Assembly (NCBI GenBank): GCA_016748015.1
Contig: JAAOMT010000671.1
Span: 124,001-188,000, forward strand
Direction: 5' to 3'
Source: Geosiphon pyriformis uo1
Taxonomy: Eukaryota; Fungi; Glomeromycota
Length of the DNA: 64,000 bases
Shown one piece after another: positions 3,481 to 36,707 of this stretch (its first letter is position 1; the number at the start of each line of letters is the position of its first letter). Below the pieces are notes generated by a model. The model worked only from the letters and a program-made list of their open reading frames with translations, was not told the DNA's origin and made no database searches. The position numbers and the translations under genes were made by a program.

Positions 3481-3515
3481 TAGGCACACCTCCAAAGGGT
3501 GAGAGTGCAAGCCAA
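3471..3515 (+). promoter_or_regulatory. -1 programmed ribosomal frameshift signal (T TTA AAC plus stem-loop)
   Basis: Heptamer in correct phase immediately before gag TAG; the -1 frame is open into the protease ORF; GCACACC...GGT(GAGA)GTGC hairpin begins ~6 nt downstream. Confidence 0.75.
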
Positions 3516-6161: not shown

Positions 6162-6229
6162 TAACAGTACAACTACCTTAAATCAAACCAACCTAATTAT
6201 TAGTAATTCTCTCACAACCAAACACAATA

Positions 6230-8417
6230 ATGGACTTAGACAACTACTCTGCCTTAATGGAATTTTTGGGTAAAAGACAATACCCACTGGAATACAATTG
6301 ACAGCAAAGAGAACATTTGCACAAACAATCAAATTTCTATTTGATCCATCAGAACCAACTATACAAAAAAGATCCTGACTGCCCCCAAAAAGTCATAAGA
6401 TTTGAAGAAAGAGAAATTGTGATCTATAACATGTACACTGATTTATTAGCTAGACACTTTGGAAAAACAAAAACAATTCAGAAAACTCTAGCTTGCTATT
6501 ATTGGCCTATCTTAGAAAAAGACATTGCTGAGTACATTAAAATCTGTGATACCTGCCAAAAAAGAGAAAAACCCAATAGAAAAAAAAATATTTATCCAAT
6601 CTCTGTTGGCCAACCATTTGACAGGATTGGTATAGATGTTGTTGGACTCTTAACAATAACCTCTGATGACAACAGATACATTATCACAGCTACTGACTAT
6701 CTTACAAAGTGGGTAGAAGCAAGAGTCACTTCAGACCAAACAGCAGTTTCAATAGCCAATTTTATTTATGAAGATATCATCTGCCATCATGGCTGCTTCA
6801 GAGAACTTTTATCTGATAGAGAAAAAGCTTTTCTTAGTACACTGATTGAAGAACTTTGTAGAAAAATGGGAATATATTACAAACTTTTCTCCCCTTATCA
6901 CCCCTAAACAAATAGTCTAGTGAAATGTTTTAATAGAACATTATGTGAAACTCTAGCCAAAACAAGTAAAGAAACAAACTTATAGAACAAAGTATTGCCT
7001 TCAGCTTTGTTTGCTTATAGAACTGTGAATCATAACATAACAAATTATAAACCTTTTTATCTGCTCTATGGACACTGTTACTTATAGAAATATAGAAAAT
7101 ATATTAGCAGGAGTAGTAGCTAATTAAAAGTAGGCATAGTAAATGTGGAATTCCAGGATTCCTCTCAGGAATTGCAGGATTCCAGAAATTTCAGAATTCT
7201 CCGACGAGGAATTGCAGGATTCCAGAATTCCAGGATTCCTCTCAAAAAAATCACAGGATTCCAGGAATTCCAAGATTCCTGTCATAAAGAATCAAGGAAT
7301 TGAGGAATCTCAATTATGTATATATAGCAGCAGGATTAAAAGCTGAAAAGACAGATCTCTCAGTTTAGATTTAAGCTAAGCAACATTTCAGTTTCCAATC
7401 ATCAAATAAATAATTATTTCATATCTCAACCCATTCTCTATTATCAACATGAAGTGTTGATAGTAATTGATACTTAACCATGCTGGAACAATAGCTCTTA
7501 ATTATGACTATTGATGAGATACTAACATACTAAATTGCCTTGACTTATTTTCTCTATTTTCTTTATTTTATTTTCTTTATTTTATTTTCTTTCTTTTTTG
7601 ATTTTGTTGTTGTATACTAATTGATTAAAAAATTAAGCACTGAGTTATTGATGTCAAGGATAGCTTGGTAAAAGACCCAGAAATAAGAGTAGGATTTTAT
7701 ATATTATCGGATAGCTTACCAAAAGGGCACAACTGTCAGACTAAATCTGGCCACCACACTGAGAAAAAAATTGGGAAAACTCTTGGAAAGATACATCTAT
7801 TATTGACACTATTGAATCTCTGTTCATTATACAAAAGACTCCATCAAAACTTTCAGATACAACACTTGCAGAATCTCATCCACGGAAGTCACTTTTGAGC
7901 ACCAAGTTATGGGTTTGTTATTTAATTCAACAGCAAAAATAATTACCTGTAACAATGCATAACAACACTACTAATAGAAACTGACATTGAGACAATATCC
8001 TTTGAAGAGATCACAATAGCAAATTACAAAGACATTTTACAAAGAAGACTTGGTACCATTCTTGACTCATTAGTAGAAGCACAAATAGTTGCTTTTGAAA
8101 AGATAAAACAGTTTCAAAAAAAGCTTAAAAAGAAAAAAACCTATAAAACACTTTCTTTAAGTGTTGGTGACTTGGTATTAAAATACTGTTTAGACAGAGA
8201 CAATGTCTATGGTGATAAATTTTCTAGCCAGTGGAAAAGACTCTTTATAGTCAACAAAGTTTTGAACAATGGTTCTTATATTCTTCAAGATTAATCTGGA
8301 ACAATCTTTAATAATCAATTTGTTCACAGCATGCGACTCAAGAAATATTACAAACAACCTGATTGGTTGCTTGTTGTGGTAATACCGACTCAAATAATCA
8401 ACAAAAATCAAGTATAA
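6230..8417 (+). pseudogene. B integrase (own ATG; split by solo LTR S)
   Basis: MDLDNYSALMEFL start; H...CDTCQ zinc module; IGIDVVG, DYLTKW, SPYHP; YG|R junction restored by removing 7076-7958; SH3/GPY-F-like tail. Confidence 0.9.
7076..7954 (+). mobile_element. Solo LTR S (C/E-type LTR family)
   Basis: TGTTAC...GTAACA; homologous to LTRs at 32149 and 45932; TSD ACAC/ATGC (both derivable from ACGC). Confidence 0.92.
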
Positions 8418-8458
8418 ATAAACGCACTATTCCCAAAACAGAGGTATTTTCAATCAAC

Positions 8459-9084
8459 ATGAACAATTATTTTCTGGATTAAAACATTTAAAATGCCTTC
8501 TATACTCTCCATGAGTATTGGATTAAAAACTATCCAAATGCTACTTTGACCATTGGAAAACAGACTACCATAATTGATAGCAGTGAAACACATACTGTTA
8601 TTAGACCAAAAAAAACAACTATCAGAAGAGAAAAAATTGGTAGCAAAATAGATAAATATCTGCTAGAAAGTATAACAGCAGTGATACTTGTACTTTCCAC
8701 CACACTTGGAAAAACAATTAAAGAAATTTTACCCATAGACAAAAACTTGTCATATGGAAGACAACTAGAGTTCTATGGTCATTTTGGTGAAATCATAGAT
8801 GACATAAAGCTCATAAAGAAAACAACTTCAGAAATACAGACAGAAATTTTGGGCATTATATAATTAGATGTTCCAAGAATTTTAACTATTGCTAGAAAAG
8901 CCAAAACTTTAATACAAAAATTTGGTCTTTTGGATACAAAACTCATTTCATCTCAAGTATTATACATCTTATCTACAAAAAACTTCAATAAATTAGTTAG
9001 CTTTGAGTTAGATAAAACTCTTTAAATAGATTACACTATAAATAGCTTGATTTTGCCAGAGCTCAATCTCTTTGGAGAGGATGA
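8459..9084 (+). pseudogene. B ORF3, unknown ~210 aa soluble protein
   Basis: ATG 8459 is in frame with ORF 8546-8863; internal stops are all TAA (compatible with CAA); TATAAATA at 8413. Confidence 0.7.
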
Positions 9085-9785
9085 TGTTATGGTTGAGACT
9101 TATACTTCTTATTAATTATCACATGTATTAGCCACTAATGTCATATGATTAGCCACACTATTTTTAGAAAGTGATCATTGATCTGATCAATGACCTGACT
9201 GTTGACCTGACCATTGACCTGATCATTGATCTGATCATTGACCTGATCATTGACCACTTTTAACAGCTATATAAGTGATGAATCTCTTAGCTGTAGAAAA
9301 GCATATAATAACAAGCATCTGAATAATCAAAAATAAATAAAATAACAATTTTCATTTCAATCCTTCTCTTATTGTTAATTTCTCTTTCCTTACCTTCAAG
9401 TATCTGAACATCTTAAAGATAAAAGATTACTTGTTGGCCTTTTTCTGACATATATAATTATAGCATTTGAAGATTATTTAAATAAACGTGACTGAAAAGC
9501 ACAAGTTGATACCTAATATTGAATTCTAAAAGCGCCAATGTGAGGCATAAAATTATACCAATGGTGATCAATTGTTAACAGTATGGACTATTTCTCTACC
9601 TTCAGATTCTTCAGTTATCTTTGAAAAGAATAGTGACTGAGATATTTTATGAGACTGATCTTGCACATTGAATCCATACTCATTCAATTCACTCTTTAAA
9701 GTTGAATTCTCCTTTGATTATTTCTATCACCCTACAATTCTGTTCTCTCTTGCTATCTATTAGCTTGTTACTCCAACCCATAACA
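9085..9785 (+). repeat. 3' LTR of B with 12-bp TGACCTGATCAT tandem array (~9170-9256)
   Basis: Direct repeat of 1270-1877, preceded by PPT. Confidence 0.95.
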
Positions 9786-12125: not shown

Positions 12126-13519
12126 CTGGATATCTTAGATTAAACTCTGCATCAGTATTATATATGCATTTGGGCATAATATCTTCATTATTATTGCTGA
12201 ACTATTTAAGTTCCTGTTCCTTAGTGAGGTCAGAAAGTACAATATATTGTTTGAAGTTTGAATCAAAGTTTAAATTATTGTAATTATCATTGCTAATTTG
12301 AACAAAATTGGAACCATTATTTTTATCATCATCATTGTCAGAGTTTAAATTGGAATTGAATGTTGATTCTGATTTCAATACACAGCTACTGATTGGTTCT
12401 TTTTCTTTTGAGATTGTGTAAATCATGTATGGTGGTAGATTGTAGATAAGGTCACACTCATTACAATATTAAAAGTCACATAGAATCAAACAATAGTCAT
12501 ATAGTTGGGTGTTTAATTGTTCTAAACACTATTCTTGCTCTTTTTTTGTGAGTGCTAAATTTTAATAACACTTGTAAAACTCTTTTAGGTCTGTCTCTAT
12601 ATCAAGAAAAACATCTGGATTTGGAATAAAAATGATATCAACTGGTTCTAAAGGATTATTTTTAATTTCCAAGATTTTGTTGAATGTGGCTCTTTTGATT
12701 TTGGTATTCTTTATTCACCAGATTTTGTTTTTGTTGTGTAGGTAACTGTTCAAACAAGAGATTGTTTAGTGCTATGCTGCAGTAATAAAAGTTCTACAAC
12801 TTATTCAGTTACTAATGAGGATCATATACTGGCATGAAGTCTTATACATTCCTTCTTAACCAAAAATGTCATTCTATATTCTTTTGTCAAGCAACTGCTC
12901 TTTACAAGAGAGACATGATTCATTGTCCCACTTGTTTTGTTGTTTTGGATAGCTATACTGTTTTCTGTAACACAGCTTGCAATAATAGTGGATTCATATT
13001 CAGTAATCTTTATTGGGTGCTATTCAAGCTTTCATGGAAGAAAGTTTCTTGCTGCAATCTTGGCACTTAAATGGAATGTATGATAGTGTTATTCATAGAA
13101 TATAAAAAGTATATTAGCATATAAATTAGCCAATCAAAAGTAGCCATAGTAAATATGGAATCTCAGGATTTTTCTTAAAGGAATTACAAGATTCTAGAAA
13201 TTTCAGGATTCTTGTACAAGGAATTCCAGGATTCCAGAATTCCAGGATTCCTCTTAAAAGAATTGCAAGATTTCAGAAATTTCAGAATTCCTGGTGTGAA
13301 GAATTGAGGAATTAAAAAATTTCAATTATGTATATATATTGGTAGCATTAAAAGTAAAAAAAACAGACCTCTCAGTTTAGATCTGATCTAAACAACCTTC
13401 CATTTACAAATATCAATAAAATAATTATTCCCTATTTTAAATCTACTCTCTACTATCAACATTTCATGTTGATAGTAATTAATATTTAACTATACTGGAA
13501 CAATAGCTCTTGATTATGG

Positions 13520-14502
13520 TGTTACCAGACGAAATTAGAGATATTATTTAGCATGAAATTATTTTTATAATTCCTATTATTAATTAGCATATATTATTGT
13601 TTCAAATTATCACTTATTATATTAGCAAAATGTCCGAAATTATCATTTAATTAATAACCCAATTTGTACATAACACAGATGTAACCTAATTGCAATGATT
13701 AATCATGCAATACCCCAAAATATGTAACATTCAAAAGTTCACTGAAATTTGTAGAAATTTGCCGAAATAATTGATAGTTCACTGAAATATCTAATAGTTC
13801 ACAGAAATAACTTGTAATTCACCGAAATGTATCTTTAGTTCAGTGAAATTGTAGAAAAGAGCAAAGTTCAAGTTCATAGAATAGTGTTATGACAAGTTGT
13901 ATAAAAAAAGAGCTTCTCTCTTCGAGAAAATGTATCTTGTTTCAGATTTAACAATTAGAATTATTTTTTACACACAAAAACAAAATAAATATCAAATAAT
14001 TTGAAAAATCAAATCCTTAATTATTTCTCTTTTGAAATTAACCAATTCTTACTAAACAGTTTTGAAATTGATTAGCTACCAATTTCAATAAACTGTTAGT
14101 GACTTCAGGCCTGGATAGAAAACATTTCTCTTGACAGAATTCTATTTCTTTTACATTTCTTTTATTTTCTTTCTTTTATTTTCTTATTATAATCATTAAG
14201 GTAGTCTACAGACGAGATTTCTGTAGAAAAGTTGACTTTCACAGCAAAGTAACTACATATTTTTAGTGAGCTTCCAAATGAGCAATTCTTGGGAAAGAGT
14301 TAACATTTACTACAATGTAACTACACAAAGCAATTGGCACAGAATTGGCCATTCTACTTATAAGCCCAGCAGTTCAAATTATAGGAAATAATTTGAAGAT
14401 AAATTCAGTTACTAGAAGTTCAACTACTTCCTGAAAACGTGAATTCACAGCAAATCAACATCAACAACATTCAAGAAAAGAGACCAAAAACCTTTGGTAA
14501 CA
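13520..14502 (+). repeat. 5' LTR of D
   Basis: TGTTACC...GGTAACA; repeat of 22437-23420. Confidence 0.95.
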
Positions 14503-14547
14503 TTTGGTGCTCTCCCATAGAAATAATACAGCAACAACAAATTCAAA

Positions 14548-17500
14548 GTGGCGACCACACCAGACACAGCAACTCTAGAGTATTACCAGTCAATTTATAC
14601 ACACTGCAAGCAAAGATTCAACATTCCAGACGGAATTGAAGTTGTCAAGAAATCAGTATACCAATACATTGAAAACCACATCAACAATTATCTTTTTAGA
14701 AACTACAACATTTCAAAAGTTAGAAGCAACCTCTACAATAATTTAGTGCACTATTCACAATTGGAAACAGAAGACCTGAACAGTGAAACACTTGCTACTT
14801 ACTTCCAAGAACTTAATTTTAACATTATTGAGTATTGTAAAGAAAAATACCCAGTACAGTTTAAATACTCTTTTGACTTTGAATCAGAGACAGAAACAAG
14901 CAACAAAAGCAAACAAAAATTGAAGCAATACTCAAAAACCACCCCAAATACTTCAATACTACCAAAAACAACTGCCAAACACTTACAAACACCTGAACAA
15001 GGAACCAGTTCAAAACTCCCACTCACTATTACATCTTTTCCAGCTTCACTTGCATAAGCAGAAACTCCTAATTCACCTTTAAATCAATTTTCAAAACTAG
15101 AAGATTATACATCACCCAGAAGTCCCACCAAACAACAAGAAACCCTTCAGACTAGTACCAATCTTCTTGACTATTTAGCAGAAAACACAAGCAAACACTC
15201 TGAAACATTAGCCAATGAAGTAAACGTTTCTGAATTCATTGAAGAAGAAGTAGAATCCAAAGAAAAAAGTGAATTAACAGATAACAAGAAAAAAGATGAA
15301 ATAACAGCTTATATTGCAAAAATTCCCGAATTTAATGAAGAAGATATTGAGATCAGTCCCCAAGAATGGCTCAACCAAGTTACTAAAGCTGGAGATGCAA
15401 ATGGATGGAATGCTGCCAGAATGTTAAGAACAATTTCCTACTTTCTCAAAAAAACAGCAGGTGAATGGTTTGAAAACTTGATCACTCCTTTTAATGACTG
15501 GACAGCTTTCAAAACAGCTTTCTTAGAACAATTCACTAATAACAACACCTCCATTACTCTTCGAAATTGTTTTCACAATATTAAACAAGAATCCTCTGAA
15601 TCTGTCATGACTTATATTGGGAAATTCAACAAACTTCTCAGACAAATTTGCCAACTTGAAACTAATGATTATTATTCTGATGCTCAAATCTTGGATCAAT
15701 TTATTGCTGGTCTAAAAGATAAACTGATTAAAAAGATTTGCCCACATGTCCCAAAAGATTTAAACTCTGCCATACAGCATGCAAAGAGATACGAAATGAC
15801 CATAGAAGAGACCAATTACACAAAACTTATAAACTTGGTCATTGGAGAAACTAGCTTAGCAGTTGAGGAGAAAATCGACCAACTCATGAAGAAAGTTGAA
15901 AACTATTTTACCAATCAACAACAACAGCAACTCCAAAGATATCAACCACCCCAAAGACAAAATCAAAATAACTTCACATTACCCTCTAATAACCAGTCTC
16001 AGAATTGCCATTACTGTTGAATTTCTGGCCACTGGAAAAGAGATTGCAAAAAGCTACAACAAGACCAACAAAATAGGAGTAATCAATGTTATCCTTTACC
16101 ACAGCAATCTTATTATCAACCACCACTACCAGCTTACTATTTACCAAGACCCCAATACCAAAATAACTATTATTAGCCCACCCCACAGCCAATTCAACAG
16201 CAATACCAACAACCACCCACACAATATTATCAAGTACCTGCTTGAAGATTGATTACACAAAATCAATTCATACCACAAAACCAATACCAAGTAAACAACA
16301 ATAGAATCAGTTCAAACAACCAATTGATTCCCTGAAATTCTACTCAACCAAGACCCAACCACTATTACACTCAACCCAGTTATTTAACAATGCCAGAAGA
16401 ACAGGATTTTTACCATACTGCACTCTCAAAAGGTAGAGCTGCAGCACGACAACAAAACTCTTTCTATACTCCTACCACAATTCCACCAGCCAGAATTGCT
16501 AAAAATGCCAACCTTTCAGATATATTCTTTTTTGAGTTTGAAGCAAATAAGTCACCATTCCTGCTCAGCAATGCAGCCGCCAATGAACAAAAAACAATCA
16601 TTGCTATGTACACTGAAGCAGAAGTCGAAGAAAAGGCAATTCACTTGATCCTAGACAGTGGATCTACTAGAAGCATCATCACCTACCAGTTGATGCAACA
16701 GTTAAAGAGAAATGTTGACCGACCAGCTCAAACAGTAATTGTTACTGCTAATGACATGAAAAAGACTCCTGTAGGAGAAATTGACAATTTTCTGTTTACT
16801 CTTGATAAAATCACCATTCCAGTCAAAGTTTTTATAATAGACGCACCCCAGTATCAAGCCCTTGTCAGAAATAATTGGCTTCAAAAAGCCAATGCAAAAT
16901 TAGACTGGGAAACCCAAGAATTACAACTCTCCTATCAAGGACAACATGCCCAAGTACCCGCTACTTGTGATATATTCAACAAATGATCAGAGAAAGCCCC
17001 TGTCTTCAAATTTGAAGAGGAGGAAGAAAAGCCTGTAGTCGAAACATTTATGGCCCTTGAATCAATATCTAACTGGGCTGAAGAAACTGAGCAAACATAT
17101 TTTGCAACAAAATCATATTCAGAGGAACCAGAAACCCCTGAATGGAACATTCCATATTCTAAACCAGAACCAAAGAAACGACACCCTTACATTCCACTCA
17201 AATGCAAGGACTGCCACAAGAAACTCTCCTCAATGGAAGCCTGCATTTTATCTGAAGAAGAATATGAAAATCATACTTGTTATTACTGCAAAGCTTGCCA
17301 CAGAGAACAATGGGGCCATCTAATAAAAAGAAGTGGAAAATAGGACAACACTCCTTGTTTGACTTGTGGAGATACGCTACCAGAAGAATGCAATTGGATT
17401 GATGTAGCAATGAGAGGAGGAGTCTGCAATCAAACCTGCCAATATGCTTTATCAATTTCAGAAAAAGTCAAAAAGAAACACCCTTTGATGTAGCATACAA

Positions 17501-20195
17501 CAGTGCTCTCAACAAACTCTATCACTACCTCCATAATGCTAAAATGATTTTTGACCTAGCAATGGCATTGGTTAATAGAGCTACCAAAGAAGATGTTCAT
17601 CAAATGAAAGAAGCTGAATATATCGAATATACCTTGGAATTAGCTAGATATGATTATAAAGATGAAGTAGAAGTGTACCATCAAATCACAAGTCACACCT
17701 ACCTGACTAAAGAAGTTCAAGCTTAACGGTTAAAGCAAATGAACATTAAATTGTGTAAAAAATGCATAATGCCTTGTGATAAACAATGGTGCCCTGAATG
17801 CTATGCTTTTAGCATTCTCCTGCTCAGTGAAAACAATAAAAACGAAATTGAATTTGAAGAACCTAAAGCAACAGAAAAAATTGAAATAACACCCATCTAT
17901 CTCATTGAAAATTAGTCTGCCTTACAACTCAAATACTTCAACAATAACGGACAAGGAATAAAACCTAAAAAAGTACATGAAATTAATGCTGGATATGACC
18001 TAAAATATCCAAACAAGGATACTCTTGTTCTCAAACCCAAATTTCTCACAAAAATCAACCTCAAAATTGCTCTCAAAATCCTGCCAGGAGCAATGGTTCA
18101 AATCACCTCCCAGTCCTCTCTGGCAAGCAAAGAAATCAATATCAAAGGAGGAATAATCGATGCTGGATATATTGGTGATATAACAGTAATATTCCAAAAC
18201 AAAACTGACAAGCCGTTTAAGATTGAACATGCTGAGAAAATTGTCCAAGCCATTTATTTATCCTTAATCAACATTTTGGGTTTACAATTAGTCAATCAAA
18301 GAGAACAATTGAGAAAAAGTGAAAAAGGAACTCAAGGTTTTGGTTCAACTGAACGATTCACAGTTCCAGTAAACATAGCTCTTAATAAACAAAATAAGTC
18401 TCACCAGATTTTACATCTTTTCCAACTAATCACTATTTCACCTTTCAGAGAACACCCCGAAATCTATATCTGCCCAAAGCCAACAACCACCCAACAAATT
18501 TTTGAGTCCAATGAACGAATCTGCTTGGAACATAATATCTCGATCTCAAACATTTATATTCCAGAAGAAACAAAGAAAGTCCAAGTTATTTTTTACAATC
18601 CCAACAATTATCCCATAGTTTTATTAAATAACTTAGAAATTAGAATCATTTACAGTAACATTTTTCAACAAGAATTACCCCAAACAGTCCCCGATTTCTC
18701 TGAAATTATTGGACATTCACTACCAAAAATCAACCCAAACCCCAGCTCTGAAAACTACCATGTTGTCATCGAAAAACTATCTCAAATCAACATAGGACAA
18801 CTTGAACCACAACAACAAAACCAGCTTAAAGAGCTAATTGCAGAATTTGCTGATATCTTTGCCAAAAACAACAATGACTTAGGAAGAACCAATTTGGTTC
18901 AACATCAAATCTACACAGGAGATGCCAAACCAAGACGACAGTAAGCCTACTGAGTTGCTCCAGAAAGTTACCAATTTATCCATGAAAAAGTACAATGGAT
19001 GCTCAACAATGGACTTATTTAACCATCAATGAGTCCATGAGCCTCACCTGTGGTCTTAGTTAAAAAGAAAAATGGAAAGATACAATTTTGTGTTGATTAT
19101 CGACAACTCAACAGCATCATCATTGGAAATGCCTACCCTCTTTCCTGAATTGATAACATGCTAGATGCTCTTGGGAAGTCCAAATACTTTTCAACATTAG
19201 ATTTAGAAAGTGAATACTGGCAAGTTGCCATGGATCCCAAAGATTACCCCAAAACAGCATTCACCACTCAAGGAGGAAATTACGAGTTCAATGTAATGCT
19301 TTTTGGATTATGCAATACACCAGCAACATTCCAAAGACTTATGGATGTTGTTTACAAAGACTTCCTTTGGAAATCAGTAGTTGTCTATCTCGATAATACT
19401 GATGTTTACTCACCATCTTTTGAATTACACTTAAAACACTTGTGAGAAGTCTTTCAATGATTACAGAAAGCAGGATTGAAACTGAACATTGAAAAATGCT
19501 ACTTTGGAAAAACGAGTTTGGCTTTTCTTGGTCACATTGTTAGTAAAGATAGAATCAAACCAGACTCTGGAAAAATTAGTGCTGTCAAAAACTTCAAAAC
19601 TCTTCAAAACACTACAGAACTAAGAGGATTCATAGGGTTAGCTTCCTACTATTGGAAGTTTATCAAAGAATTCTCAGAAATTGCAAAACCTCTCAACCAG
19701 CTTACTACCAAAAACATCGAATACAAATGGACTGCTGAACACCAAAATGCATTTGAAATCCTCAAAGAAAAATTAATCACAGCTCCAATTCTTGCCTATC
19801 CAGATTTTAGCAACCAATTCCAGTTAGCAACAGATGCCTTTTATACTGTCTTTGGTGCCATCCTATCACAGTTAGATGACAATAGAAATGAGCAAATAAT
19901 TGCTTATGCTAGCAGAACATTGAAACCAGCTGAAAAGAACTACCCTGCAACAGAATTAGAAACTGCAGCAGTAATCTGGGCCCTATATCACTTCAACCTT
20001 TACCTCAAACCCAAAGAATTTGATATTATCACTGATAATATTGGACTCAAATGGCTTCAAAAAAAAAACACTCAGCTGAATGCCAAACAAACCCAATGGA
20101 CAGGATTTTTAGCCAACTACCAATACATTGTACATCACAAACCAGGAAAACTCCACACTAATATTGATTGTCTCTCAAGAATGAGGCAAGATTAG
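14548..20195 (+). pseudogene. D gag-pol: N-terminal extension, capsid, CCHC, protease, Cys-rich domain, dUTPase, pseudo-dUTPase, RT, RNase H
   Basis: IAKIPEF; CHYC..GHWKRDC; LILDSGS; CKDC/CYYCKAC; AGYDL, GGIIDAGYIG, GTQGFGST; YLDN (=YLDD); LATDA; gag and protease share one frame. Confidence 0.92.
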
Positions 20196-20241
20196 AACAT
20201 AAAAACAACATCCATTTGAATTAACAACAAAACAACAAACA

Positions 20242-21626: not shown

Positions 21627-21790
21627 TTTAAATTTATTATTATAGTTATCTCCTTATAATTTAGAAACAATCTCACAAAAACAAAACAAAAATAACATAA
21701 AAACCCATACACCAAAAATAATTTTTTTTTATTTTCAAATCTCTTATAAGGACTATTCCTCAAAACATTCAACAATTATCCCAAAAACTA

Positions 21791-23420: not shown

Positions 23421-23869
23421 ATGGCTATTGACGAGATATCAACTTTTATTGCCTTGACTCATTTCCTTATTTTCTTTTATTTTTTTTATTTTTTTTATTT
23501 TTATTTTTATTTCTTTGTTGTGTACTAATTAATTAAAAGATTAAAGCACTGAGTTATTAATGTTAAGAATAAGCCTGATAAAAGACCCCAAAGGAAGGAT
23601 ATAGCATTGAGAATTTCAGAATAGCTTACTAGAAAAGCATCTCTGCCAAATTACTGGCCATTATGCTGAAAAAAAAATTCAATGTAATTGTGATTCTAAA
23701 AGACTACTGAGAAGACAACAAATAAATCTCTATCCATTATACAAAGACTTAACAAACAAAAATCTTTAGATATAAACAATCTTTGGAAATCAACATTATC
23801 ATATTCATTGAGCACCAAGTTACAGATTTGTTATTTGATTTGAGACTTCAAATAATCATCTGTAATATT

Positions 23870-23887
23870 TGGTGCTCCTTGTGAGGT
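23870..23887 (+). promoter_or_regulatory. PBS of C (TGGTGCTCCTTGTGAGG)
   Basis: 2 nt after LTR end; same PBS as B, F and E. Confidence 0.8.
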
Positions 23888-23929
23888 ATAATCTTACAGA
23901 GAACCAGCACCAACAACAATCATCCAAAA

Positions 23930-26900
23930 GTGGCAGAATCAGAAATTATAAGAGCAAACTATTTAGGATTCACCAAATCTTTGTTTTAACAATACAGTCA
24001 ACAGTTAGGATTAAACAACAACCATTTTCCAGCAGAATCAGCCTTCAACTTTTATGTTAATAATAAAATCACAGACTGCTTAGGAGGAACAGTTAACATT
24101 GAATCTACAAGAGAAAATTTTTATACAGAATTGTTTCAACATACCAGCTTACCAAGAAATTACAGTTTTGTACCAAGCATTAAAGAAATCAATCAAACTA
24201 TTAAAAAATACACCCAACAACAATTCCTCATCACTTATGCAGACAAAAACAAAAGAAGATTGCAAACACCAGTGGTAACACCCAAAAAAATACAACCACC
24301 CACTTGGAAGAAAACCAAAGTTGAATTACTAACCAATCCATCATACTATTATACACCAGGAAGTGCCATCAATATCTCTTCAGCAGACATGTCCACATCA
24401 AATATAACATCAATTTTTGGACAATTCCTATTTCAAAGTAAACAAAAAAGAGCAGAGTTATTAGGACCATATGGTGAATATTTTAAAGGATTTAAATCGT
24501 AATTACCAATGCTATCAGAATTTTGATTACCACCATCTTAACCAGATTTTGGAACTGTGAGTTTGTGGAAAGTAACTAAATCAGAAGAAAAAAAAAGTGA
24601 GAATCAGGAATTTACCTACCAAAACCCAATCCTAAAAAGTCCAGAAGTTAAAACTCCAAACATTCAAATACAGCAAACTCAAAACAATCCAAACTCTGAA
24701 GCAATTAATTAGCAAAACTTACCTCTAGTAATCATCATCAATTAGCCACCAATTGAACTAATTATTGAACTGATTCAACAACAGCCACTTTAGCAATCTA
24801 TTCAACAACTGCTTTAACCACCTTAACAATCACAACAACTATTTCAACAGCTGCAACAACAACTTTAACCACTACCATCACAACAACAAATGGCATACAC
24901 ACCAATTGCAAAGCTGAAAAAGTTTTCTGGTGAAGAGGATAACACCCAAGCATGGATCAATAATGTTGCCAAAGCCATTATCACTAATAACTGGAATGAC
25001 ACCAGGACAATGCAAGTCATCCCATATTTTCTTAAGAATACTGCTAACTCATGATATTATAGCTTAGTCCAGAAATTCCAAGATTTTGATGCATTCAAAT
25101 TAAAATTTCTAAGATACTTTAGTAATAATAATAGCATCAACTGTCTGGCAAGTATTTTTACCACCATAAAGCAAGAGGACACAGAAGCAATCACTACTTA
25201 TCTAGGATGCTTCCATAGAAATTTGCACTAAATTTAGGCAATCTAAGCTGATTATTTTACAGCACTACAAATTTTAAATCAATTCATCAGAGGCCTATAC
25301 AGTAGTATCCTTCAATGCATATGTCCATTGCATCCAGCAGACCTTCAAATCACCATTACAAATGCCAGAGATTTTGAAGCCACTAAATTAAAAGCCAACC
25401 ACATCCAAGCCATAAACCTAGTGATAAATGGATCATCTGACTTGGATTCTAAGTTGAAGCAATTCAGCAACTCAATCAAACAGAAATTCAAAGAATACTT
25501 AGCTAATATCAATTAGGTAATTTATTAATCTCTACAATGATACAACAATTAGGGAAACTCAAATCATTCCCAAAATTAACCACATCTATTATTGTTGACC
25601 AATCAATTATGACAACAAGAAACACATGTTTGCCACTATTGTGGTAAACAAAGACATCTGCAATTTGACTGTCAAAAAAGAATAAGTAACCAATGATCAG
25701 GAAATTACTATCAAAATCTTAATTGCCAGTTTCAAACTCCAGGTTATCAACCAAACTCAAAACTATATCAACCGAACTACCTACCTATGACACAGCAGCA
25801 AATTTATCAAACACCAATTTACCAGCCTCTAGCACCTGTAATTTATCAACCAGCAACACCCATAATCTATCAATTACCACAGCCTCAAATAATATATCAA
25901 CTTCAACAAACTTCAATACTATTATTAAACTCAGCTCAAATGACATCAGAGAACCTTAGATCAAGGGTTACCCAAAACTGGAGATCAGTAATGGTTGTCC
26001 ACCAACTGATCTTCAACTCTTTAAACCAGTTATTGGGATTATGCCAGCAGAATTCAAAAACTGAGTACACACAAAAACTGAGTTTTTAAAACTATTTAAG
26101 CCTTCTAGTAACTCCAAAAGATGTCTCATCTAGCAAAACAGAACCCAATCAAAATAAACCACTTACCAGCAACATTTCACCAGCCATCATCATGGAAAAC
26201 AAGTTACTCGCAGCTATATTTTCTTTTGAAATGGAAGAACTGTCAGAAATCTCTTTGTTCAGTGAAGCCATATTTGAAGAAAAACCCATCATAGCAATAT
26301 ACATTAATGCCAAAATTGATGGCCATTCCATCAAACTGATCTTAGATAGTGGATCAGCTAGCAGTATTATCACAAAACAACTCATGGACCAATTAAGTTA
26401 CCAAGTTAATTGGGCTGCCAATGCAAGAATCATTATGGCGGATGGAATGACTAAAATTTCAATTGGCAAAATTGATGACTTTCCTATCAAAGTCAATGGT
26501 ATTATAGTACCAATCAAGATACTAGTTATGGAAGCCACTCAATACCAAGCACTCATTGGTAATGACTGGCTGTCCAAAACCAATGTGGTACTTGATTGAA
26601 CTGCCCAAAAACTCCAGCTAAGCCAGAATGGCCAACATACGAGAGTACCAGCTTTCTGTGGCCACTTTAAACCAACCACTATACAACCATTAATCAAACT
26701 AAAAGAAGAGGAAACTAAATCTACTTGGAAAGCTTATCAAGTTTCTTGGGCTGACAAGAATCACAATGAACTGCTGCCAGTACTTTTATGGGATGACCAA
26801 AAAAAAAGAAAGAGAAGAGAAGAACTTACCTGGGACACCGACCAATTATCATGAGATAACAATAATTAAAGCAAGTTACTACCAATTTGGATCTGGGAAG

Positions 26901-29900
26901 AAAAAGGAAAAAAGAAAGAAAGGGAAAGTAAAAACACATAAAATCTCAACCCTACATATATTCCATACTTGGCACCACAACCACAAACCAGTTACTATTG
27001 ACCCAAGCTAGTATGTGTTGATTGTGGTAAGAAATTGTTGACAATGAACACATGCTGTAGCAACAATGAGGAATACCAAATGGCAACTAAGTTTTATTGC
27101 CACTCATGTGTTATTGAACACTTTAGAAGACCAAAACAAGTTGGAAAATAGGATAACAAACCATGTTTGACTTGTGGAGAAATTCTTCTAGATGAAAGAA
27201 TGTGGAATGACATTCCTGGGTAAGGAGGAACATGTAATAAATTATGTCAATACATGATTCTAATAAGTAACTGGGTTAGAAAAAAAACACCAATAGAAGC
27301 CACTTAAATAGATGTTCACATGATGATAATAAAATTTGGCAAATGACACTTGCCAAAATCAAAGGAGTGTTATATAAAGAAATAAGAACAATCAAAAACA
27401 ACTTACTAAAACTCATAAAACTAGACTGGAACCCAAAACCAATCATAAATTTTCTGAATTCAGAACAATTCCATGAACACTACCAAGAATTAGTGCTTAT
27501 GAGAAAAGAGCAAGAGCAATGCTTAGAGCAGCTGAACACTTGACTGTGTCAATACTGCTTAATCCCATGTGACTTCCAATATTGTAATAAGTGTAACCTT
27601 ATTTACAATTCACTATCATACATGATCTACACAATTCCAGAAGAAGACAAACCAATCAGCAGCTATGCATTAGAATCAGATTCAACTTTCAATTCCAATT
27701 TAAACTCTGACAATGACAACAACAAAAACAACAGTTCCAGTTCTGCTTAATATGACAACAAAAATAACAATAATTTGGATTCCAATTCAAATCCTGAAAC
27801 ATACATAGCACTTTTTAATCTCTTTAAAGAACAAGAACTCAGATGGTTCAGTAATAATAATGAAGGTATTATGCCAGAACATGTACATGATACCAATGCA
27901 GGGTTTGATCTGAGATATCCCAAAAAATATGCTATTAAATTAGAACCACATTCACACATCTGTATTGATCTTAAAATAGTACTAGAAATTCTAGCAACAA
28001 CAATGGTTCAACTAGCATCCAAGAATAGTTTAGCAAAAAAAGAAATCAACATCAAAGAAAGAATAATTGATACAGGATATATGAAAAATATCATTGCTAT
28101 GCTACAAAATAACTCGGAAAAGACCTATATTATAGAGCCAAACAAAAAGATAGCACAGACAATATTCCTGTTTCTGGTTAAAATAGCTCAATTAGTATCA
28201 ATGGAAAACAGGAAAGAATTAGGGATAACAGCAAGAGAAATACAAGAATTCAGATCAATAGGTAGAATAGATGTACTAATTAATATGGCAGAAAAAGAGG
28301 TTATTAACAAGAGAGAAATTATCTCTACCCATCAATCAATTTCTATTCCACCATATGACTAGTATATAGTAACTATAGAGAGAAAAGTAAAGAATCAGGT
28401 TCAGATTTTTGAGGCAGAAGCATATCAACCAAGAACTACAGTTACATAAAAATTCCCATTTACAACAACATGGGAAATGTTATTAAGATACCAGAAGAAA
28501 CTACCATTGGATACTTAACCACTAAAATTGAAGACCAACTGCCAGACACTATTCTAGACTTTCCACAACTTTGCAGATATGTGGATATTACATCTCAAAC
28601 AATATACAGACAAGAAGAATGTTATCTGCTCTAACCAAAACAATTAGAACAGATAAACTTGAGAAATTTAGACCCACTACAATGTATACAGCTTAAAATG
28701 TTACTCAACAATTTCAACAACATATTTGCCAGCAAAAATGAATTTGGCAGAACTAACATTATTCAACATCAGATAAAAACTGGGGACACAATGCCAATAA
28801 AAAGCAAAGAGCATACAGAATACCACCAGCCAGCCATGAAATCATTTGTCAAGAAATTAACCAAATGCTTGACAACAGGTTAATTCAGCCATCAATGAGC
28901 CTATGGTCATCACCAGTAGTATTAATCTGTAAGAAAAATGGAAAAATCCATTTTTGTGTGGATTACCAAAAACTGAATGGACTAACAAAAGGAGATAGCT
29001 ACCCAACTCCAAAGATCCAAGAACTTTTTGATGCTTTTGAAGAAAAGAAATGGTTTTTAACTTTAGACTTAAACAGTGGTTACTGACAAGTAGCTATAAA
29101 ACCAGAAGATAAAAAGAAAACAGCTTTTACAACTCAAGAAAAAAATTTCGAATTTAAAGTGATGCCATTTGGCTTAATGAATGCTCCAGCCACTTTCCAA
29201 TAACTTATAGAAATTGTTTATACTGGGCTACTATAGAAATTAATAGTCATATACTTAGATAATATCAATGTGTTCTCAAAAACATTTGATGATCACTTGC
29301 ATTATTTCTAACAAGTATTTGAAAGACTAAGAAGAGCTGAATTGAAGCTAAATGCCACCAAGTGTTTTTTTGGAAAAACAGAACTCAAGTTTTTGGAACA
29401 TGTTGTGAACAAAGATGGTATCAAAACAGATTCAGATAAGATTGAGATTGTTAAAAACTTTCCAGTACTCACCAACTTGACTGAATTATGAGCATTCTTG
29501 GGATTTGTAGGATACTACTATTGCTTTATCAAAAACTTTTCCAAAATAGCTTAACCACTACACCAAATACAAATAGACTAAAATCCAACAAAAAGTCTTT
29601 GACACACTAAGAAGAAAACTTATTCAAGCCCCAATATTAATCTATCCAAATTACAGCAAACCATTTATCATCACTACCAATGCATCAGACCAAGTATTGG
29701 GAGCAGTACTATTGCAGAGAGGACCAGAGGAAAGAAAACATCCAGTAGCTTATACCAGTAAAAACTTAAGTTCAGCTGAAAAAAACTATGAAACTCTAGT
29801 ACTGGAACACTTGGCTATATATTGGGCTGTCATTAAATGAAAAAAATACTTAAGTTAAAAGTTTGATGTATACACTAATCACAAAGTATTGACTTCAATC

Positions 29901-30035
29901 CAGAAGCAAGAATTTGGAAACAATTGCTATGCCAGATAGAAAATAGAACTTTCACTATTTAATTATATAGTACATTACAAAAAAAGAAAAGAAAATGGAA
30001 ATGCTAACAGATTGTCACAAATAAGACAAATCTAA
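23930..30035 (+). pseudogene. C gag-pol with Cys-rich domain and dUTPase (~27840-28265)
   Basis: MAYTPIAKLKKF 24890; CHYCGKQRH; LILDSGSA; NAGFDLRYP; FCVDYQKLN; MPFGLMNAP; ends LSQIRQI*. Confidence 0.9.
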
Positions 30036-30067
30036 AAACATTTTCAACCCAAAAATATAACAAAAAA

Positions 30068-31444
30068 ATGAATATACAAAAATACCAACAACTCCAATAT
30101 TATATAAATATCCAATTGTTCAAGAAAAAATTATCTCAAAAAGAACAAAACAACATAAAACAGTAATCAAAATATTTTATTAACCATCAAAATATACTTT
30201 ACTGGAAGAACAAAAAAAATTCAGATCAATCAACCAAAGTAATCACAGAACCAGAGAAAGAGACAATATTATTCAACATGCACTCAGATCCAACAGCAGG
30301 ACATTTCTATAAAGAAGCAACCATAGAAAGAACCAAAAAAAGATACTATTGGCCATCAATATATTTGAATATTATCTAATATGTGCAAAATTGTGATGCT
30401 TGTCAGAGAAGAAAAGAAACAAAATCCAATAAACCATTAAGACCAATTAAAGTGAGACAATTATTTAATCATATTAGAATTAACTTAGTTGGATCATTAA
30501 CAATCACCAGCAAAGGCAACAGATATATTGCAGTAGCCATAAATTATCTCACAAAATGGCCAGAAGCAAAAGTCATTCAAAGAGTAGATGCAGAATTTAT
30601 TGCCAAATTTGTTCATCAAGATTTGATCTGTTAACACAAATGTCCAAAAAAACTACTATTAGATCAAGAAACTCATTTTGTGAATAGAAAATTGGCAGAA
30701 TTAAGTCAAAAATTTGGAATAAAAAGACTATTATTATTACCATACCATCTACAAACAAATGGATTAGTTGAAAAGTTTAACAGAACATTGTGTAAAGTCA
30801 TTGCCAAAATCAGCCAAAAAAACCAGGATGAATAGGATTTGATTATACTATTAGTATTATTTACTTATTGGACAATAAAGTAAGACATGACACAAGCAAC
30901 ACTATTTAAACTAGTATATAATAGAACAGCAATCTTACCAGTTGAGATAGAAGTCAAAACATATTTAGCAGAACCAATAACAGAAGAGAATTTTCAAAAA
31001 ACATTGTTGAAAAGAACATATGATGTAATAGAAACACTAGAAAATACATGGTGAAAAGCAGCTAATAACATCCAAAAGTCACAAAAAAAACAAAAAAAAA
31101 GACATGATAATCAACTACTAAATAAACCAGTCAAATTTAGGATTGAAAACAAAGTACTTTTACATTATACCAAAGCAAAAAAACAATGGAGTGGAAAATT
31201 TGATCCCAAATAGAACAGACCATTTTACATAAAGGAAATTCTTGGAAATGGAGCTTATAAACTAAGATAGGACAACAAAATCTTAGCCAAAGCAGCACAT
31301 AGTGATTAACTGAAACCATATCACCATATAGTGTCACCATCTATCAGTGATATTCCACAATTAGAAGTACAGAAAATACTAATCCAACCAAATAAAATTC
31401 CATGAGATTTAAAACCAATTATAATCATTGAACCAAATATGTAA
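30068..31444 (+). pseudogene. C integrase (own ATG)
   Basis: MNIQKYQQLQYYI; MHSDPTAGH, CDACQ, YLTKWPEA. Confidence 0.88.
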
Positions 31445-31504
31445 AATTAAACAACCACAAGAATATATAAAGACACAGTATATATGACAAAAGACAACAG
31501 AAAA

Positions 31505-32134
31505 ATAGAAATTACTAATGGCATTTACTTACTAGTACAACAACTTTTTCAACTGATTCAACAACAAGAAATGGAAATTACAATCAACTAATAAACTATC
31601 AAATACACAAACATCAGAAAAAAACCATGAGATAAAATATGAAGAAAAACAGAAAACACTGTGGATAAAATAATCACAAAAGTGAAATTGGCAATAGAAA
31701 TACAACCAAAAGTCATCTACTATCAAGAGTTAACTATAGAAACTTGGAATTAGTGGATACAACAATTTCTGAGAAACTTTTGTTACTTTTATTTGGAACA
31801 ACCCTTGAACATTTAGGGCTTGTATATGGATAAAACAAAATGATTATTTAACACAACAATACTGCAACAACTGGAACAATTTGTGGGGAAGAACAATTTG
31901 ACCACACAAGCAAAAGCCATTTATTGACTACACATTGGATTTCAAGATCGACCAGAAATCTTACTCAATCCAGAAATGAACTCTATTATCATTAACCAAA
32001 TAGGAAAAATAACCAATGCTCAATTTGAAGAAGTACAGAACAAGATAGCACAGATAATTCTTGAAAAAAAAGTTCAAGAAATACTCAAAGACAGAGAACT
32101 AGAATTAGGAGATCTTGATAGAACTTAATATTAA
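31505..32134 (+). pseudogene. C ORF3
   Basis: TATATAAA 31464; start ATA (ATG in F); PEILLNPEMNSIIINQIGKIT. Confidence 0.68.
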
Positions 32135-32148
32135 AAAGGAAGAAATAA

Positions 32149-32999
32149 TATTACTTATAGAATATAAGAAGTATATTAGCATATAAATTAGCCAATCAGA
32201 AGTAGCCGTAGTAAATGTGAAATTCCAAGATTCCTCTTAAAGAAATTGCAGAATTCCAGAAATTTCAGAATTCTTGTACAAGGAATTGCAAAATTCCAGA
32301 ATTTCAAGCTTCCTCTTAAAAGAATTGCAGAATTTCTGGTGTAAAAAATTGAGAAATTGAGAAATCTCAATTATGTATATATATTAGTAGTATTAGAAAT
32401 AGAAAAGACAGACCTCTCAGTTTAGATCTAATCTAAAAAACCTTCCATTTACAAATATCAATAAAATAATTATTCTCTATTTTAAATCTACTCTCCACTA
32501 TCAACACTTTATGTTGATAGTAATTGATACTTAACTACACTAGAACAATAGCTTTTAATTACGGCTATTGACAGAATACCAACTTTTATTGCCTTGGTTT
32601 ATTTCCTTATTTTTTTTTATTTTTTTTATTTTTTTTTTTATTTCTTTATTATGTACTAATTAATTAAAGAATTAAAGTGCTGAGTTATTGATGTCAAAGA
32701 TAAGCCTGATAAAAGACCTCAAAGAAAGGGTATAACATTGAAAATTTTAAAATAGCTTATCAGAAGGGCATCTCTGCCAGATTACTGGCCATTACACTGA
32801 GAAAAAAATTTGACAGAATTGCAATTCTGGGAGGCTATTGAGAAGACAACAAATAAATTTCTGTTCATTATACAAAGGACTCAACAAACAAAAACCTTCA
32901 GATATAAACAACCTTCAGAAATCAACATTATTATATCCATTAAACACCAAGTTATGGATTTGTTATTTGATTTGAGACCCCAAATAATTATCTGTAACA
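32149..32999 (+). repeat. 3' LTR of C (GGAATTCC-rich U3 array)
   Basis: Repeat of the joined 13087-13519/23425-23867. Confidence 0.93.
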
Positions 33000-33743: not shown

Positions 33744-34591
33744 TGTTATAGATGATTATTTGGAGTCTCAAATCAAATAACAAATCCATAACTTGGTGCT
33801 TGGTATGTTGATAATGCTGGTAATACCAATATGTTAGTTGTATCTGAAGATTTTAGGGTGGAGTTCTTTGTATAATGGACAGAGATTTAATTGATGGTTT
33901 TATCTATAGCTTCCTGAAACTGCAGTTTTGTCAAATTTTTTTCTCAGCATGGTGGCTGGTAATCCTTTTGGTAAGCTATCCTCAAATCTATAAGTGTTTT
34001 ACCTTTGTTTCACAGGTCTTTTACCAGCCTCTATAACGTCTGTATTTCAGCACTTAATTCTTAATCAATTTAGCAAAACCAAAGAAATAACAAAGAAATA
34101 AAAAAAATAAAAGAAAATAAAAAAACAAATAAAAGCAATTGCAAGTTAGTATTCCGTCAATAGCCATAATTAAGAGCTATTGTTCCAGTGTAGTTAAGTA
34201 TCAATTACTATCAACATGAAGTGTTGATAGTGGAAAATGGATTAAGATAGTAAATAATTATTTATTGATATTTGTGAATTGGAAAAGTTGCTTCAATGAA
34301 ATTTAAACTGAAAGGTTTGTCTTTTCTACTTCTAATGTTACCATTATATATACATAATTTGGGTTCTATAAGATTGCTCATATTCTCGAGCGATGTGCTA
34401 TAATTTCTCAAGCAATGCTCACATTGCTGAGCAATATGCCATATTTTCTTGACATTGTTCCATATTGCTGAGTAATGTGCCATGATTTCTGACATTGTTC
34501 CACATTGCTGAACAATGTGTTTACGTGCTAATTATTACTCTCTTATTGGTCTTCTATTTTTTTTATATCTGTTTTCTTTTTATGAGTAACA
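33744..34591 (-). repeat. 3' LTR of F
   Basis: Direct repeat of 42856-43690. Confidence 0.93.
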
Positions 34592-34605
34592 TTATCTCCT
34601 CCTTT

Positions 34606-35240
34606 TTAATATTGAGCTCTGTCAAAATCTTTGTTTTGAATTAATTCTAATACTTCTTTTTTAAGTATTGTTTGTTTGACTCTGTTTCTTATGTTTTCTA
34701 CTTGTGTTTTGTTCATTCTTCCCCATTGGTTAATGGTTATGGTTTCCATGTCAGAGTGTAACAGTATTTCTGGATAGTTCCAAAATATGTTGTATAGTCA
34801 GTACATTGTTTTAATGTGTAGTGTTGAATTTGTTTTCTTTCTGATAAATTCTTTAATTTGTTGTATTATGTCTTGATTGAATATTCTCTTGGATTTGTTG
34901 ATATACAACTCTTGAATATTCAACTTTTGACCTAATTGGTAATAGCAATATGATATTAGAAGTCGTTTTGTTTATTGTTTTCAATTTTTTTTGTAAGCTC
35001 TTCTGTTGGTGCCATAATAAGTATTTTTCCAAAAGTGTTCTTCACTTTTTCTATTAAGTTATCTGTCCAGTTTTTATCATTTTTTGGTGGCCACTGATAT
35101 GGTGTATTCTTTGTCTTTCTTTAAGTGTTTCGATAACAAATTATTTGGTTGTAAATAACAATTTCCATGTCTAATTGTTGTTTACTTAAGACTTGAAACA
35201 ATTGTTAAGCTATAGTGTGAATATGATCTGATATTTCCAT
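34606..35240 (-). pseudogene. F ORF3
   Basis: MEISDHIHTIA...CYYQLGQKL...LYNIFWNYPEILLH...DFDRAQY*; TATATAAA 42 nt upstream. Confidence 0.7.
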
Positions 35241-35295
35241 TTTTCTTGGTTGCTTTTGTCATGTGTACTGTGTCTTTATATACTCTTTTGATTGT

Positions 35296-36678: not shown

Positions 36679-36707
36679 CTTTTGTTATATTTTTGGATTG
36701 AAATGTT

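What the first reader, a model, noticed from the sequence alone, without database searches (positions are those of the whole stretch)
8413..35282. Extra 3' ORF3 with its own TATA box: candidate element-specific transactivator or anti-silencing gene
B, D, C and F each carry a ~210-codon ORF between IN and the PPT. A TATA-like box lies a near-constant 41-46 nt before the start (8413/8459, 21745/21791, 31464/31505, 35282/35240). The proteins are hydrophilic with no signal peptide or TM segment, so they are not Env. C, D and F share a C-terminal xRLYxxF...xLxxPxxxxxxIxxxGK/R pattern; B is more distant. C and F are very similar through pol, IN and the ORF3 promoter, yet diverge strongly in ORF3 and have different U3 arrays. 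Inference: ORF3 and the adjacent U3 form a linked, co-evolving protein/target-site module. Analogies are Tas/Tax of complex retroviruses and VANC of VANDAL transposons. I know of no description of this in these fungi.
Basis: partly seen in the sequence, partly recalled or inferred. Interest (0 to 1): 0.88.

Follow-up and report, generated by a model that had tools for sequence, protein, structure and literature searches.

The report
Swappable extra gene in fungal retrotransposons
Gypsy retrotransposons of the fungus Geosiphon carry an apparently undescribed extra gene after integrase that likely changed hands together with family-specific repeats in the element's promoter and likely encodes a DNA-binding regulator of its own element, although the four copies in this window are broken by mutation.

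Summary
The extra gene is real, but all four window copies are pseudogenes (4-9 premature stops; F also frameshifted). Full-length relatives are abundant in Geosiphon pyriformis, and an intact 230-aa copy sits at the same place in a metagenomic element (L001, 29% identical to D). C, D and F are homologous; B is a marginal relative. The protein is soluble and helical, with no significant family or fold match and no transmembrane segment. Between C and F, synonymous divergence is about four times higher in ORF3 than in integrase while dN/dS is the same (0.34 vs 0.38), and U3 is unalignable. ORF3 plus U3 was therefore probably swapped as one block rather than evolving fast. In L001 the U3 repeat core occurs five times: three in U3 and two upstream of ORF3, a foamy-virus-like layout absent from the four window elements. 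The TATA claim holds for B and C/F but not cleanly for D. DNA binding and transcription are untested, and linkage alone could explain the co-inheritance. The scan noted post-integrase accessory genes in other genomes, with no sequence match to this one.

The parts
1270..9785 (+). Element B, Gypsy LTR retrotransposon (LTRs 1270-1877 and 9085-9785, 91.6% identical)
6230..8418 (+). B integrase, separate frame with own ATG, interrupted by solo LTR H (7076-7954); its stop lies inside the TATA-like box
8413..8420 (+). B TATAAATA, 46 nt before ORF3
8459..9115 (+). B ORF3 pseudogene, 218 codons, 4 internal stops, runs through the PPT into the LTR; marginal homolog of C/D/F
9172..9255 (+). B U3 array, 12-nt unit TGATCATTGACC x7
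13520..23420 (+). Element D (LTRs 13520-14502 and 22437-23420, 93.1%; TSD ATGG), nested in the 5' LTR of C; Gag, protease, dUTPase, RT, RNase H, integrase, SH3
21749..22468 (+). D ORF3 pseudogene, 239 codons from the family's upstream start (AGG here; second ATG at 21791), 4 internal stops, runs through the PPT into the LTR
22654..22766 (+). D U3 array, 20-nt spacing, core AGTTCGCCGAAAT-like
13087..32999 (+). Element C (5' LTR split by D; 3' LTR 32149-32999; LTRs 86.5% identical)
31464..31471 (+). C TATATAAA, 41 nt before ORF3
31505..32134 (+). C ORF3 pseudogene, ATA start, 9 internal stops, ends at the PPT
32221..32334 (+). C U3 array, 40-nt unit with GGAAT-N6-ATTCC inverted cores
33744..43690 (-). 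Element F (LTRs 43690-42858 and 34591-33744, 90.8%; TSD CCAC), nested in element G
35275..35282 (-). F TATATAAA, 42 nt before ORF3
34606..35240 (-). F ORF3 pseudogene, about 5 stops and a frameshift near 34,990, ends at the PPT
34373..34519 (-). F U3 array, 40-41-nt unit with the palindrome CACATTG-N5-CAATGTG
7076..7954 (+). Solo LTR H with C-type U3 array
45932..46776 (-). 5' LTR of element G with C-type U3 array; G's ORF3 region is not in the window
61845..61919 (-). Last 25 codons of a further ORF3 subfamily (100% to P0326 194-218) in a young, internally deleted element

Best explanation
ORF3 is an element-encoded accessory gene of a dUTPase-bearing Gypsy lineage, and its product likely acts as a nuclear, sequence-specific DNA-binding regulator of the short repeats in its own element's U3. 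Shown: position, conservation, purifying selection, no membrane segment, family-specific U3 arrays, and the joint divergence of ORF3 and U3 between C and F. Predicted: a helical-bundle core. Inferred: ORF3 is transcribed from a weak internal promoter at the end of integrase or in the spacer. A basic, poorly ordered segment (often ending R/K/H-x2-5-PY) takes it to the nucleus. A helix after a conserved G-[KP]-[TN]-N turn, whose first residues differ between families, reads the repeats. Binding raises LTR transcription, by direct activation or by keeping CpG methylation off. In L001 the same motif upstream of ORF3 would give positive feedback, as with foamy-virus Tas. Because gene and target sites are adjacent, one template switch exchanges both and gives a lineage a new private regulator.
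For: Homologs: 200 of 341, 63 of 123 and 127 of 397 candidates for D, C and B; 116 profile hits spanning further subfamilies and two metagenomic full-length proteins. L001 has RT-RH, integrase, a 316-nt spacer, intact ORF3, PPT and LTR. 54 of 411 stored proteins join integrase and ORF3 pieces, nearly always of the matching family. C vs F: ORF3 dN/dS 0.34 (0.16-0.55), pS 0.63 (0.52-0.73); integrase 0.38 and pS 0.28 (0.22-0.35). Transversions: 20% in ORF3 vs 2-6% in IN, RT-RH, gag and R-U5. G and H share C's U3 (79-80%) although they are no closer to C than F is elsewhere. L001: TTGCCCT occurs 5 times in 3,713 nt, 3 in U3 and 2 at -198/-177 of ORF3; 0 of 20,000 spacer shuffles gave two. C and F array units are palindromic. 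AF2 core has pLDDT about 90 over residues 81-210. Weak leads to helical domains of nucleic-acid proteins: DUF1016_N (Pfam E 0.015-0.12 in 3 of 45; Atlas 0.85) and a SigF fragment (Z 4.8, rmsd 2.3, 57 aligned). The elements are strongly CpG-depleted (o/e 0.12 vs 0.70 in a host gene) and LTR pairs differ almost only by transitions.
Against: No significant family or fold match: Pfam none above cut-off, Foldseek none at E<=0.001, best Z 5.0. DUF1016_N itself has no established function (PMC1189080). 0 of 4 window elements show their U3 motif upstream of ORF3, even allowing C>T/G>A decay. The L001 match was found after the fact among 14 7-mers in 5 elements, and a host factor could use both sites. 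The two metagenomic proteins are acidic overall (pI 5.4, 5.9) and the PY motif is absent from B (0 of 23) and from the C representatives. The swap is one event, and adjacency explains it. dN/dS gives no sign of an arms race. D's TATA is doubtful, and L001's nearest strict TATA is 126 nt upstream.
Confidence: 0.5

Rival explanations
1. ORF3 is a functional accessory protein with another job (RNA-silencing suppressor, RNA export or packaging factor, integrase partner). The U3 arrays are host-factor sites that travel with it only because ORF3-PPT-U3 is copied as one stretch in reverse transcription.
For: Adjacency predicts the C/F pattern without any binding (established retroelement replication). 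There is no DNA-binding fold hit. Integrase is also a separate ORF, so auxiliary factors for its expression or packaging are plausible. A sunflower Tekay extra ORF resembles dsRNA-binding proteins (PMC12844716 passage).
Against: The C/F boundary falls at the ORF3 start and just before the LTR TATA, keeping gene and array whole. Every ORF3 type seen with DNA has a different array (5 of 5). The motif recurs upstream of ORF3 in L001.
Confidence: 0.33
2. ORF3 is a captured member of a larger Mucoromycota protein family, kept for a function that is not specific to the element or that benefits the host.
For: The core of P0352 scores 0.94 (174-177 shared features) against unnamed, 100% eukaryotic, mostly Mucoromycota clusters; whether these are element-borne could not be seen.
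Against: It holds a fixed position across subfamilies that are 20-40% identical and in a second organism's element. Its 3' end overlaps the PPT and LTR start in B, D and L001.
Confidence: 0.1
3. ORF3 is an Env-like or movement protein that spreads elements between nuclei, hyphae or cells.
For: It occupies the env position in sense orientation, the class called aORF-3S (PMC7264820).
Against: There is no hydrophobic stretch (max 19-residue KD mean <=1.44 in 13 of 13), no match to viral structures, and the model is a small soluble bundle.
Confidence: 0.05

Closest known systems
Sense additional ORFs between pol and the 3' LTR (aORF-3S; review PMC7264820)
   Same: Position and orientation; present in most copies of the families.
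   Different: Described cases are mostly plant and insect Env-like proteins with transmembrane segments; this one is soluble and fungal.
Foamy virus Tas (PMC3798896 passages)
   Same: Small (209-308 aa), poorly conserved protein encoded just before the 3' LTR, made from an internal promoter, binding response elements there and in U3. L001 shows the same two-site layout.
   Different: No sequence or fold link was found. The host is a fungus and the element a Ty3/Gypsy retrotransposon without env. The two-site layout is missing in the 4 window copies.
VANC of VANDAL transposons (PMC5735166 abstract; PMC12844716 passage)
   Same: Element-encoded protein with family-specific tandem-repeat targets in a host that methylates transposons.
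   Different: VANDALs are plant Mutator-like DNA transposons. No homology was found, and demethylation was not tested here.
Retand/Grande antisense accessory ORFs (TRP28, GENE23; PMC11963269, PMC7264820)
   Same: [quoted passage not shown]
   Different: Antisense, plant-only, TRP28 domain, and the arrays lie inside the internal region rather than in U3.
DUF1016_N (PF17761, YhcG N-terminal domain)
   Same: Weak similarity over the central helices in two searches.
   Different: Far below the Pfam cut-off; prokaryotic; fused to a nuclease domain; function unproven.

Membership tests
Ty3/Gypsy LTR retrotransposon | LTRs with TG..CA ends, TSD and PPT | tested here: met
   (4-nt TSDs exact in D and F; differing by transitions in B, C and H)
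Ty3/Gypsy LTR retrotransposon | Order Gag-PR-RT-RH-IN | tested here: met
   Pfam on element D; RH then IN in B, C, F and L001
Env-like aORF-3S | Sense ORF between pol and 3' LTR | tested here: met
Env-like aORF-3S | Transmembrane segment | tested here: not met
   max KD19 <=1.44 in 13 of 13 proteins, (the 1.6 threshold is recalled)
Foamy virus Tas | Sequence homology to Tas | tested here: not met
   no such Pfam family among the rows shown
Foamy virus Tas | Related fold | tested here: inconclusive
Foamy virus Tas | Same response element in U3 and at an internal promoter | tested here: inconclusive
   present in L001, absent in 4 of 4 window elements
Foamy virus Tas | Direct DNA binding and transactivation | not testable with these tools
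   needs EMSA or a reporter assay
VANC | Encoded by a Mutator-like DNA transposon | tested here: not met
   host element is Gypsy
VANC | Family-specific tandem repeats in non-coding parts of the element | tested here: met
   U3 arrays
VANC | Binds the repeats and removes DNA methylation | not testable with these tools
   needs ChIP/EMSA and methylome data
Retand TRP28 ORFs | Antisense orientation and PF04195 | tested here: not met
   sense ORF; no PF04195 row shown
DUF1016_N | Pfam gathering score 32.8 bits | tested here: not met
   12.9 bits for P0009; best E 0.015 in 3 of 45

The most novel reading that the evidence does not exclude
These fungal Gypsy elements run a foamy-virus-like circuit of independent origin. 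A small DNA-binding protein of a new family activates, or shields from methylation, both its own internal promoter and the LTR through private repeat sites. Protein gene and operator array form one exchangeable cassette at the 3' end of the RNA, so lineages gain new orthogonal regulators by a single recombination, in an element that also makes integrase as a separate ORF.
Probability: 0.35. Interest if true: 0.87.

Novelty: new variant of a known kind. Interest (0 to 1): 0.63.

Why it matters
The accessory ORFs of LTR retrotransposons are known by position, but the 2020 review read here (PMC7264820) gives no established function for them. This lineage offers at least five paired protein/U3 types, a natural swap, intact coding copies and short defined motifs, so a cognate versus non-cognate test is cheap and decisive. 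If it holds, a simple retrotransposon has a Tas- or VANC-like specific regulator. That could help explain the LTR expansion to 41% of the G. pyriformis genome (PMC11952901) under heavy C-to-T decay, and it would supply a set of orthogonal DNA-binding protein/site pairs. It also shows that hundreds of annotated Geosiphon 'hypothetical proteins' are transposon genes.

Tried and rejected
No whole genome is held for the window, so the genome-wide ORF3/U3 congruence test could not be run. No RNA holder was listed; this is no evidence on expression. A first AlphaFold model from a shallow alignment was poor (pLDDT 48). Foldseek on PDB and viral libraries, the wide VIA search and a PDB sequence search gave nothing significant; no Tas, VANC or clear HTH entry was listed. 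No homodimer prediction was obtained, so dimer formation stays open. No ORF3 relative was found in viral contigs (P0340 query) or prokaryote genome contigs (A1 query). B versus C or D profile-profile alignment was not significant. No strict TATA lies at a common distance upstream of the integrase ATG. Positive selection on ORF3 was rejected as the cause of the C/F contrast. The D integrase rows were read in a wrong frame and are discarded; one search replaces them. dN/dS values for pairs under 30% identity are near those of the unalignable B comparisons (0.45-0.51 vs 0.55-0.80) and are not used. A resemblance to a large Rhizophagus family is recalled only; one search is compatible with it but does not name it.
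Full report
Setting. The first 47 kb of the window are nested, decayed LTR retrotransposons. Element D carries Pfam Retrotrans_gag, aspartic protease, dUTPase, RVT_1, RNase H, integrase and SH3 in Gypsy order. LTRs end TG..CA with 4-nt target duplications. All named homologs are Geosiphon pyriformis hypothetical proteins at up to 91% identity, so the window is taken to come from that fungus or a close relative; no genome was held. PMC11952901 (passages) gives 41.2% LTR coverage for this species. The 5' and 3' LTRs differ almost only by transitions (50:1, 68:0, 111:4, 73:0). CpG is the most mutated context (0.66 vs 0.21-0.30), and CpG observed/expected is 0.12 in the elements against 0.70 in a host gene. 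This fits methylation-driven decay; CG methylation of transposons is reported for Rhizophagus (10.1101/2021.03.30.436303, passages), not measured here.

The observation. A frame of 210-240 codons follows integrase in B, D, C and F, but every copy is broken: 4, 4, 9 and about 5 stops, with a frameshift in F. That it is a gene rests on relatives. D gave 200 hits among 341 candidates, C 63 of 123 and B 127 of 397. Of those listed, 81 of 120, 19 of 63 and 41 of 120 fall in the full-length size windows. These are gene models, and some skip stops by predicted introns, most visibly in C. A C/D/F profile found 116 proteins. I looked up the source of 20 of them: 18 are G. pyriformis and 2 are unnamed metagenomic proteins, P0340 and P0352. 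The contig of P0352 (L001) shows RT-RH, integrase with one stop, a 316-nt spacer, an intact 230-aa ORF3 running through the PPT into an LTR, and a U3 with its own repeats. Its integrase is 55% and its ORF3 29% identical to D's. 54 of 411 stored proteins join an integrase piece to an ORF3 piece, 53 in that order. The best-scoring integrase was of the same family in 10 of 10 D, 8 of 8 C/F and 32 of 34 B cases; 2 belong to a subfamily with no window reference. This shows adjacency genome-wide, not real fusion.

Homology. C and D profiles align over 183 columns (87.6%, E 3.5e-6), and F is 37-40% identical to C. B is not significant by profile-profile alignment (E 0.097 and colinear from the N-terminus). 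Against an 11-sequence profile the best of 23 B proteins scored 10.6, 9.7 and 8.7 bits, against a top of 8.6 in 500 shuffles; the 23 are not independent. B is a probable, unproven relative.

TATA boxes. B, C and F have strict matches where stated, and the background for such a match 41-46 nt upstream is 0.24%. C and F count once, and B's box includes the integrase stop. In D the proposed box overlaps the codon where 239-aa homologs start, and those 14 residues align with the first helix of C, L001 and others. Many D homologs, however, are annotated from the second ATG, so the true start is open. In L001 a strict TATA lies 126 nt and a weaker TATAAT about 26 nt before the ATG. An internal promoter is plausible but not shown.

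Protein. The highest 19-residue hydropathy mean is <=1.44 in 13 of 13 proteins. AlphaFold2 with 45 sequences gave mean pLDDT 74 and about 90 over residues 81-210: an N-terminal helix and hairpin of low confidence, a disordered basic segment (39-63), a helical bundle and a long C-terminal helix. An R/K/H-x2-5-PY motif, the PY-NLS consensus (PMC2408616, abstract start in a search listing), lies in that segment in 25 of 45 D1, 8 of 27 D2, both metagenomic proteins and 0 of 23 B proteins. No Pfam family passes its cut-off. DUF1016_N appears weakly twice; PMC1189080 (passages) calls that domain helical and of unknown structure, and its HTH label is recalled. Fold searches gave no significant match; the best Z was 5.0, with a SigF fragment at Z 4.8. 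The Atlas places the P0352 core near unnamed Mucoromycota clusters (0.94), with a closterovirus coat cluster at 0.93 and fewer shared features. In the alignment a G-[KP]-[TN]-N turn precedes a helix whose first five residues differ between subfamilies before a conserved A-x-x-R-L-Y-x-x-F pattern. Reading this as a recognition helix is inference.

The ORF3-U3 block. C and F are 78-88% identical across RT-RH and integrase, including the spacer with the TATA. They drop to 59% in ORF3 and 43% in U3, and return to 80% from just before the LTR TATA. Synonymous differences are 0.63 (0.52-0.73) in ORF3 against 0.28 (0.22-0.35) in integrase, while dN/dS is 0.34 and 0.38 (184 and 437 codons). Transversions, which C-to-T decay does not create, are 125/614 in ORF3, 28/1368 in integrase, 39/1229 in RT-RH, 109/1893 in gag and 38/604 in TATA-R-U5. 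LTRs G and H share C's U3 at 79-80%, although G's gag is further from C (72%) than F's is (77.5%) and H's R-U5 is further (74% vs 80%). So ORF3 is under purifying selection, and ORF3 plus U3 of F has an older, separate ancestry: an exchange, not acceleration. This is one event, gag-protease identity also varies (63-89% by window), and G's and H's ORF3 cannot be seen. In reverse transcription, ORF3, PPT and U3 are copied in one run from the 3' end of the RNA (established knowledge), so linkage alone could give this pattern.

U3 arrays. Each type has its own repeat upstream of the LTR TATA: B a 12-mer x7, D a 20-nt spacing, C a 40-mer with GGAAT-N6-ATTCC, F a 40-41-mer with CACATTG-N5-CAATGTG, and L001 TTGCCCTAG. 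I tested the foamy-virus prediction that the U3 motif recurs before ORF3, using 14 repeated 7-mers from 5 elements. In L001, TTGCCCT occurs 5 times in 3,713 nt: 3 in U3 and 2 at -198 and -177 from the ORF3 ATG; 0 of 20,000 shuffles of the spacer gave two. In B, C, D and F nothing was found within 400 nt, nor with a decay-tolerant scan. L001 is the least decayed copy and has the longest spacer, which may explain the difference, but the count is 1 of 5 and a host factor would give the same picture.

Mechanism and rivals. The most likely reading (0.5) is a nuclear regulator that binds its cognate U3 repeats, with activation and anti-silencing not separable here. A different accessory role with passive linkage is the main rival (0.33). 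A captured host-family gene (0.1) and an Env-like role (0.05) are less likely.

Comparison with print. Sense accessory ORFs at this position are a known class, mostly Env-like; antisense ones such as Grande GENE23 are nuclear and have their own promoter (PMC7264820, parts 1-2 of 3, covering the main text). Retand TRP28 is predicted to bind DNA (PMC11963269, passages). Tas binds elements at the internal promoter and in U3 (PMC3798896, passages). VANC proteins target family-specific tandem repeats (PMC5735166, abstract and outline; PMC12844716 and PMC12859917, passages). Six full-text searches (titles and abstract starts only, except as follows) and passages of PMC11952901, PMC13465315 and PMC3248453 showed no description of such an ORF in Geosiphon or Glomeromycota Gypsy elements. 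The library lacks most subscription papers; I did not see the Geosiphon genome paper, Repbase, the curated AMF transposon library or any supplements, and these may bear on novelty. Earlier scan notes describe post-integrase accessory genes in other genomes, with no look-alike by sequence.

Verdict. This is a real, apparently undescribed accessory gene family with a measurable ORF3-U3 block and one suggestive autoregulatory layout. It is a new variant of a known kind, its function is untested, and it is directly testable. Interest 0.63.

Noticed in passing
window 6230 (B), 20242 (D), 30068 (C), 36678- (F); L001 799: In 5 of 5 elements RNase H ends in a stop and integrase starts at its own ATG after a short A/C-rich spacer, in differing frames, so pol appears split into RT-RH and a separate integrase ORF. 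One literature search did not turn up this layout (listing only). How integrase is expressed and packaged is unexplained.
   Followed up: partly
window 61390-64000 (-): Young element (CpG o/e 1.08) with a long dUTPase ORF joined directly to the last 25 codons of an ORF3 subfamily and an LTR, so internally deleted or misassembled around N gaps. Its family is the best candidate for active copies.
   Followed up: partly
LTR pairs of B, C, D, F: 302 transitions against 5 transversions, in all C contexts with a CpG excess; RIP-like or methylation-driven hypermutation.
   Followed up: partly
window 17100-18100 (D) and equivalents: Cys-rich region between protease and dUTPase (CxxC pairs) in the polyprotein frame; no Pfam family was named in the part scanned.
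   Followed up: no
window 9074-9115, 22424-22468; L001 3092-3148: ORF3 of B, D and L001 reads through the PPT and the first bases of the LTR, so the PPT and att site are also coding; C and F stop at the PPT.
   Followed up: yes
window 13087-32999 and 33080-46776: Nesting: D sits in C's 5' LTR, solo LTR H in B's integrase, and F in G.
   Followed up: yes
window 54991-57115 (+): Host gene that looks like a peroxisomal multifunctional beta-oxidation enzyme (short-chain dehydrogenase plus hydratase domains; name recalled, not searched).
   Followed up: no
window 49160-52110 (-) and 59000-61390: Decayed sequence of another repeat type, matching non-ORF3 parts of gene model P0326 in the first interval; not analysed.
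   Followed up: no
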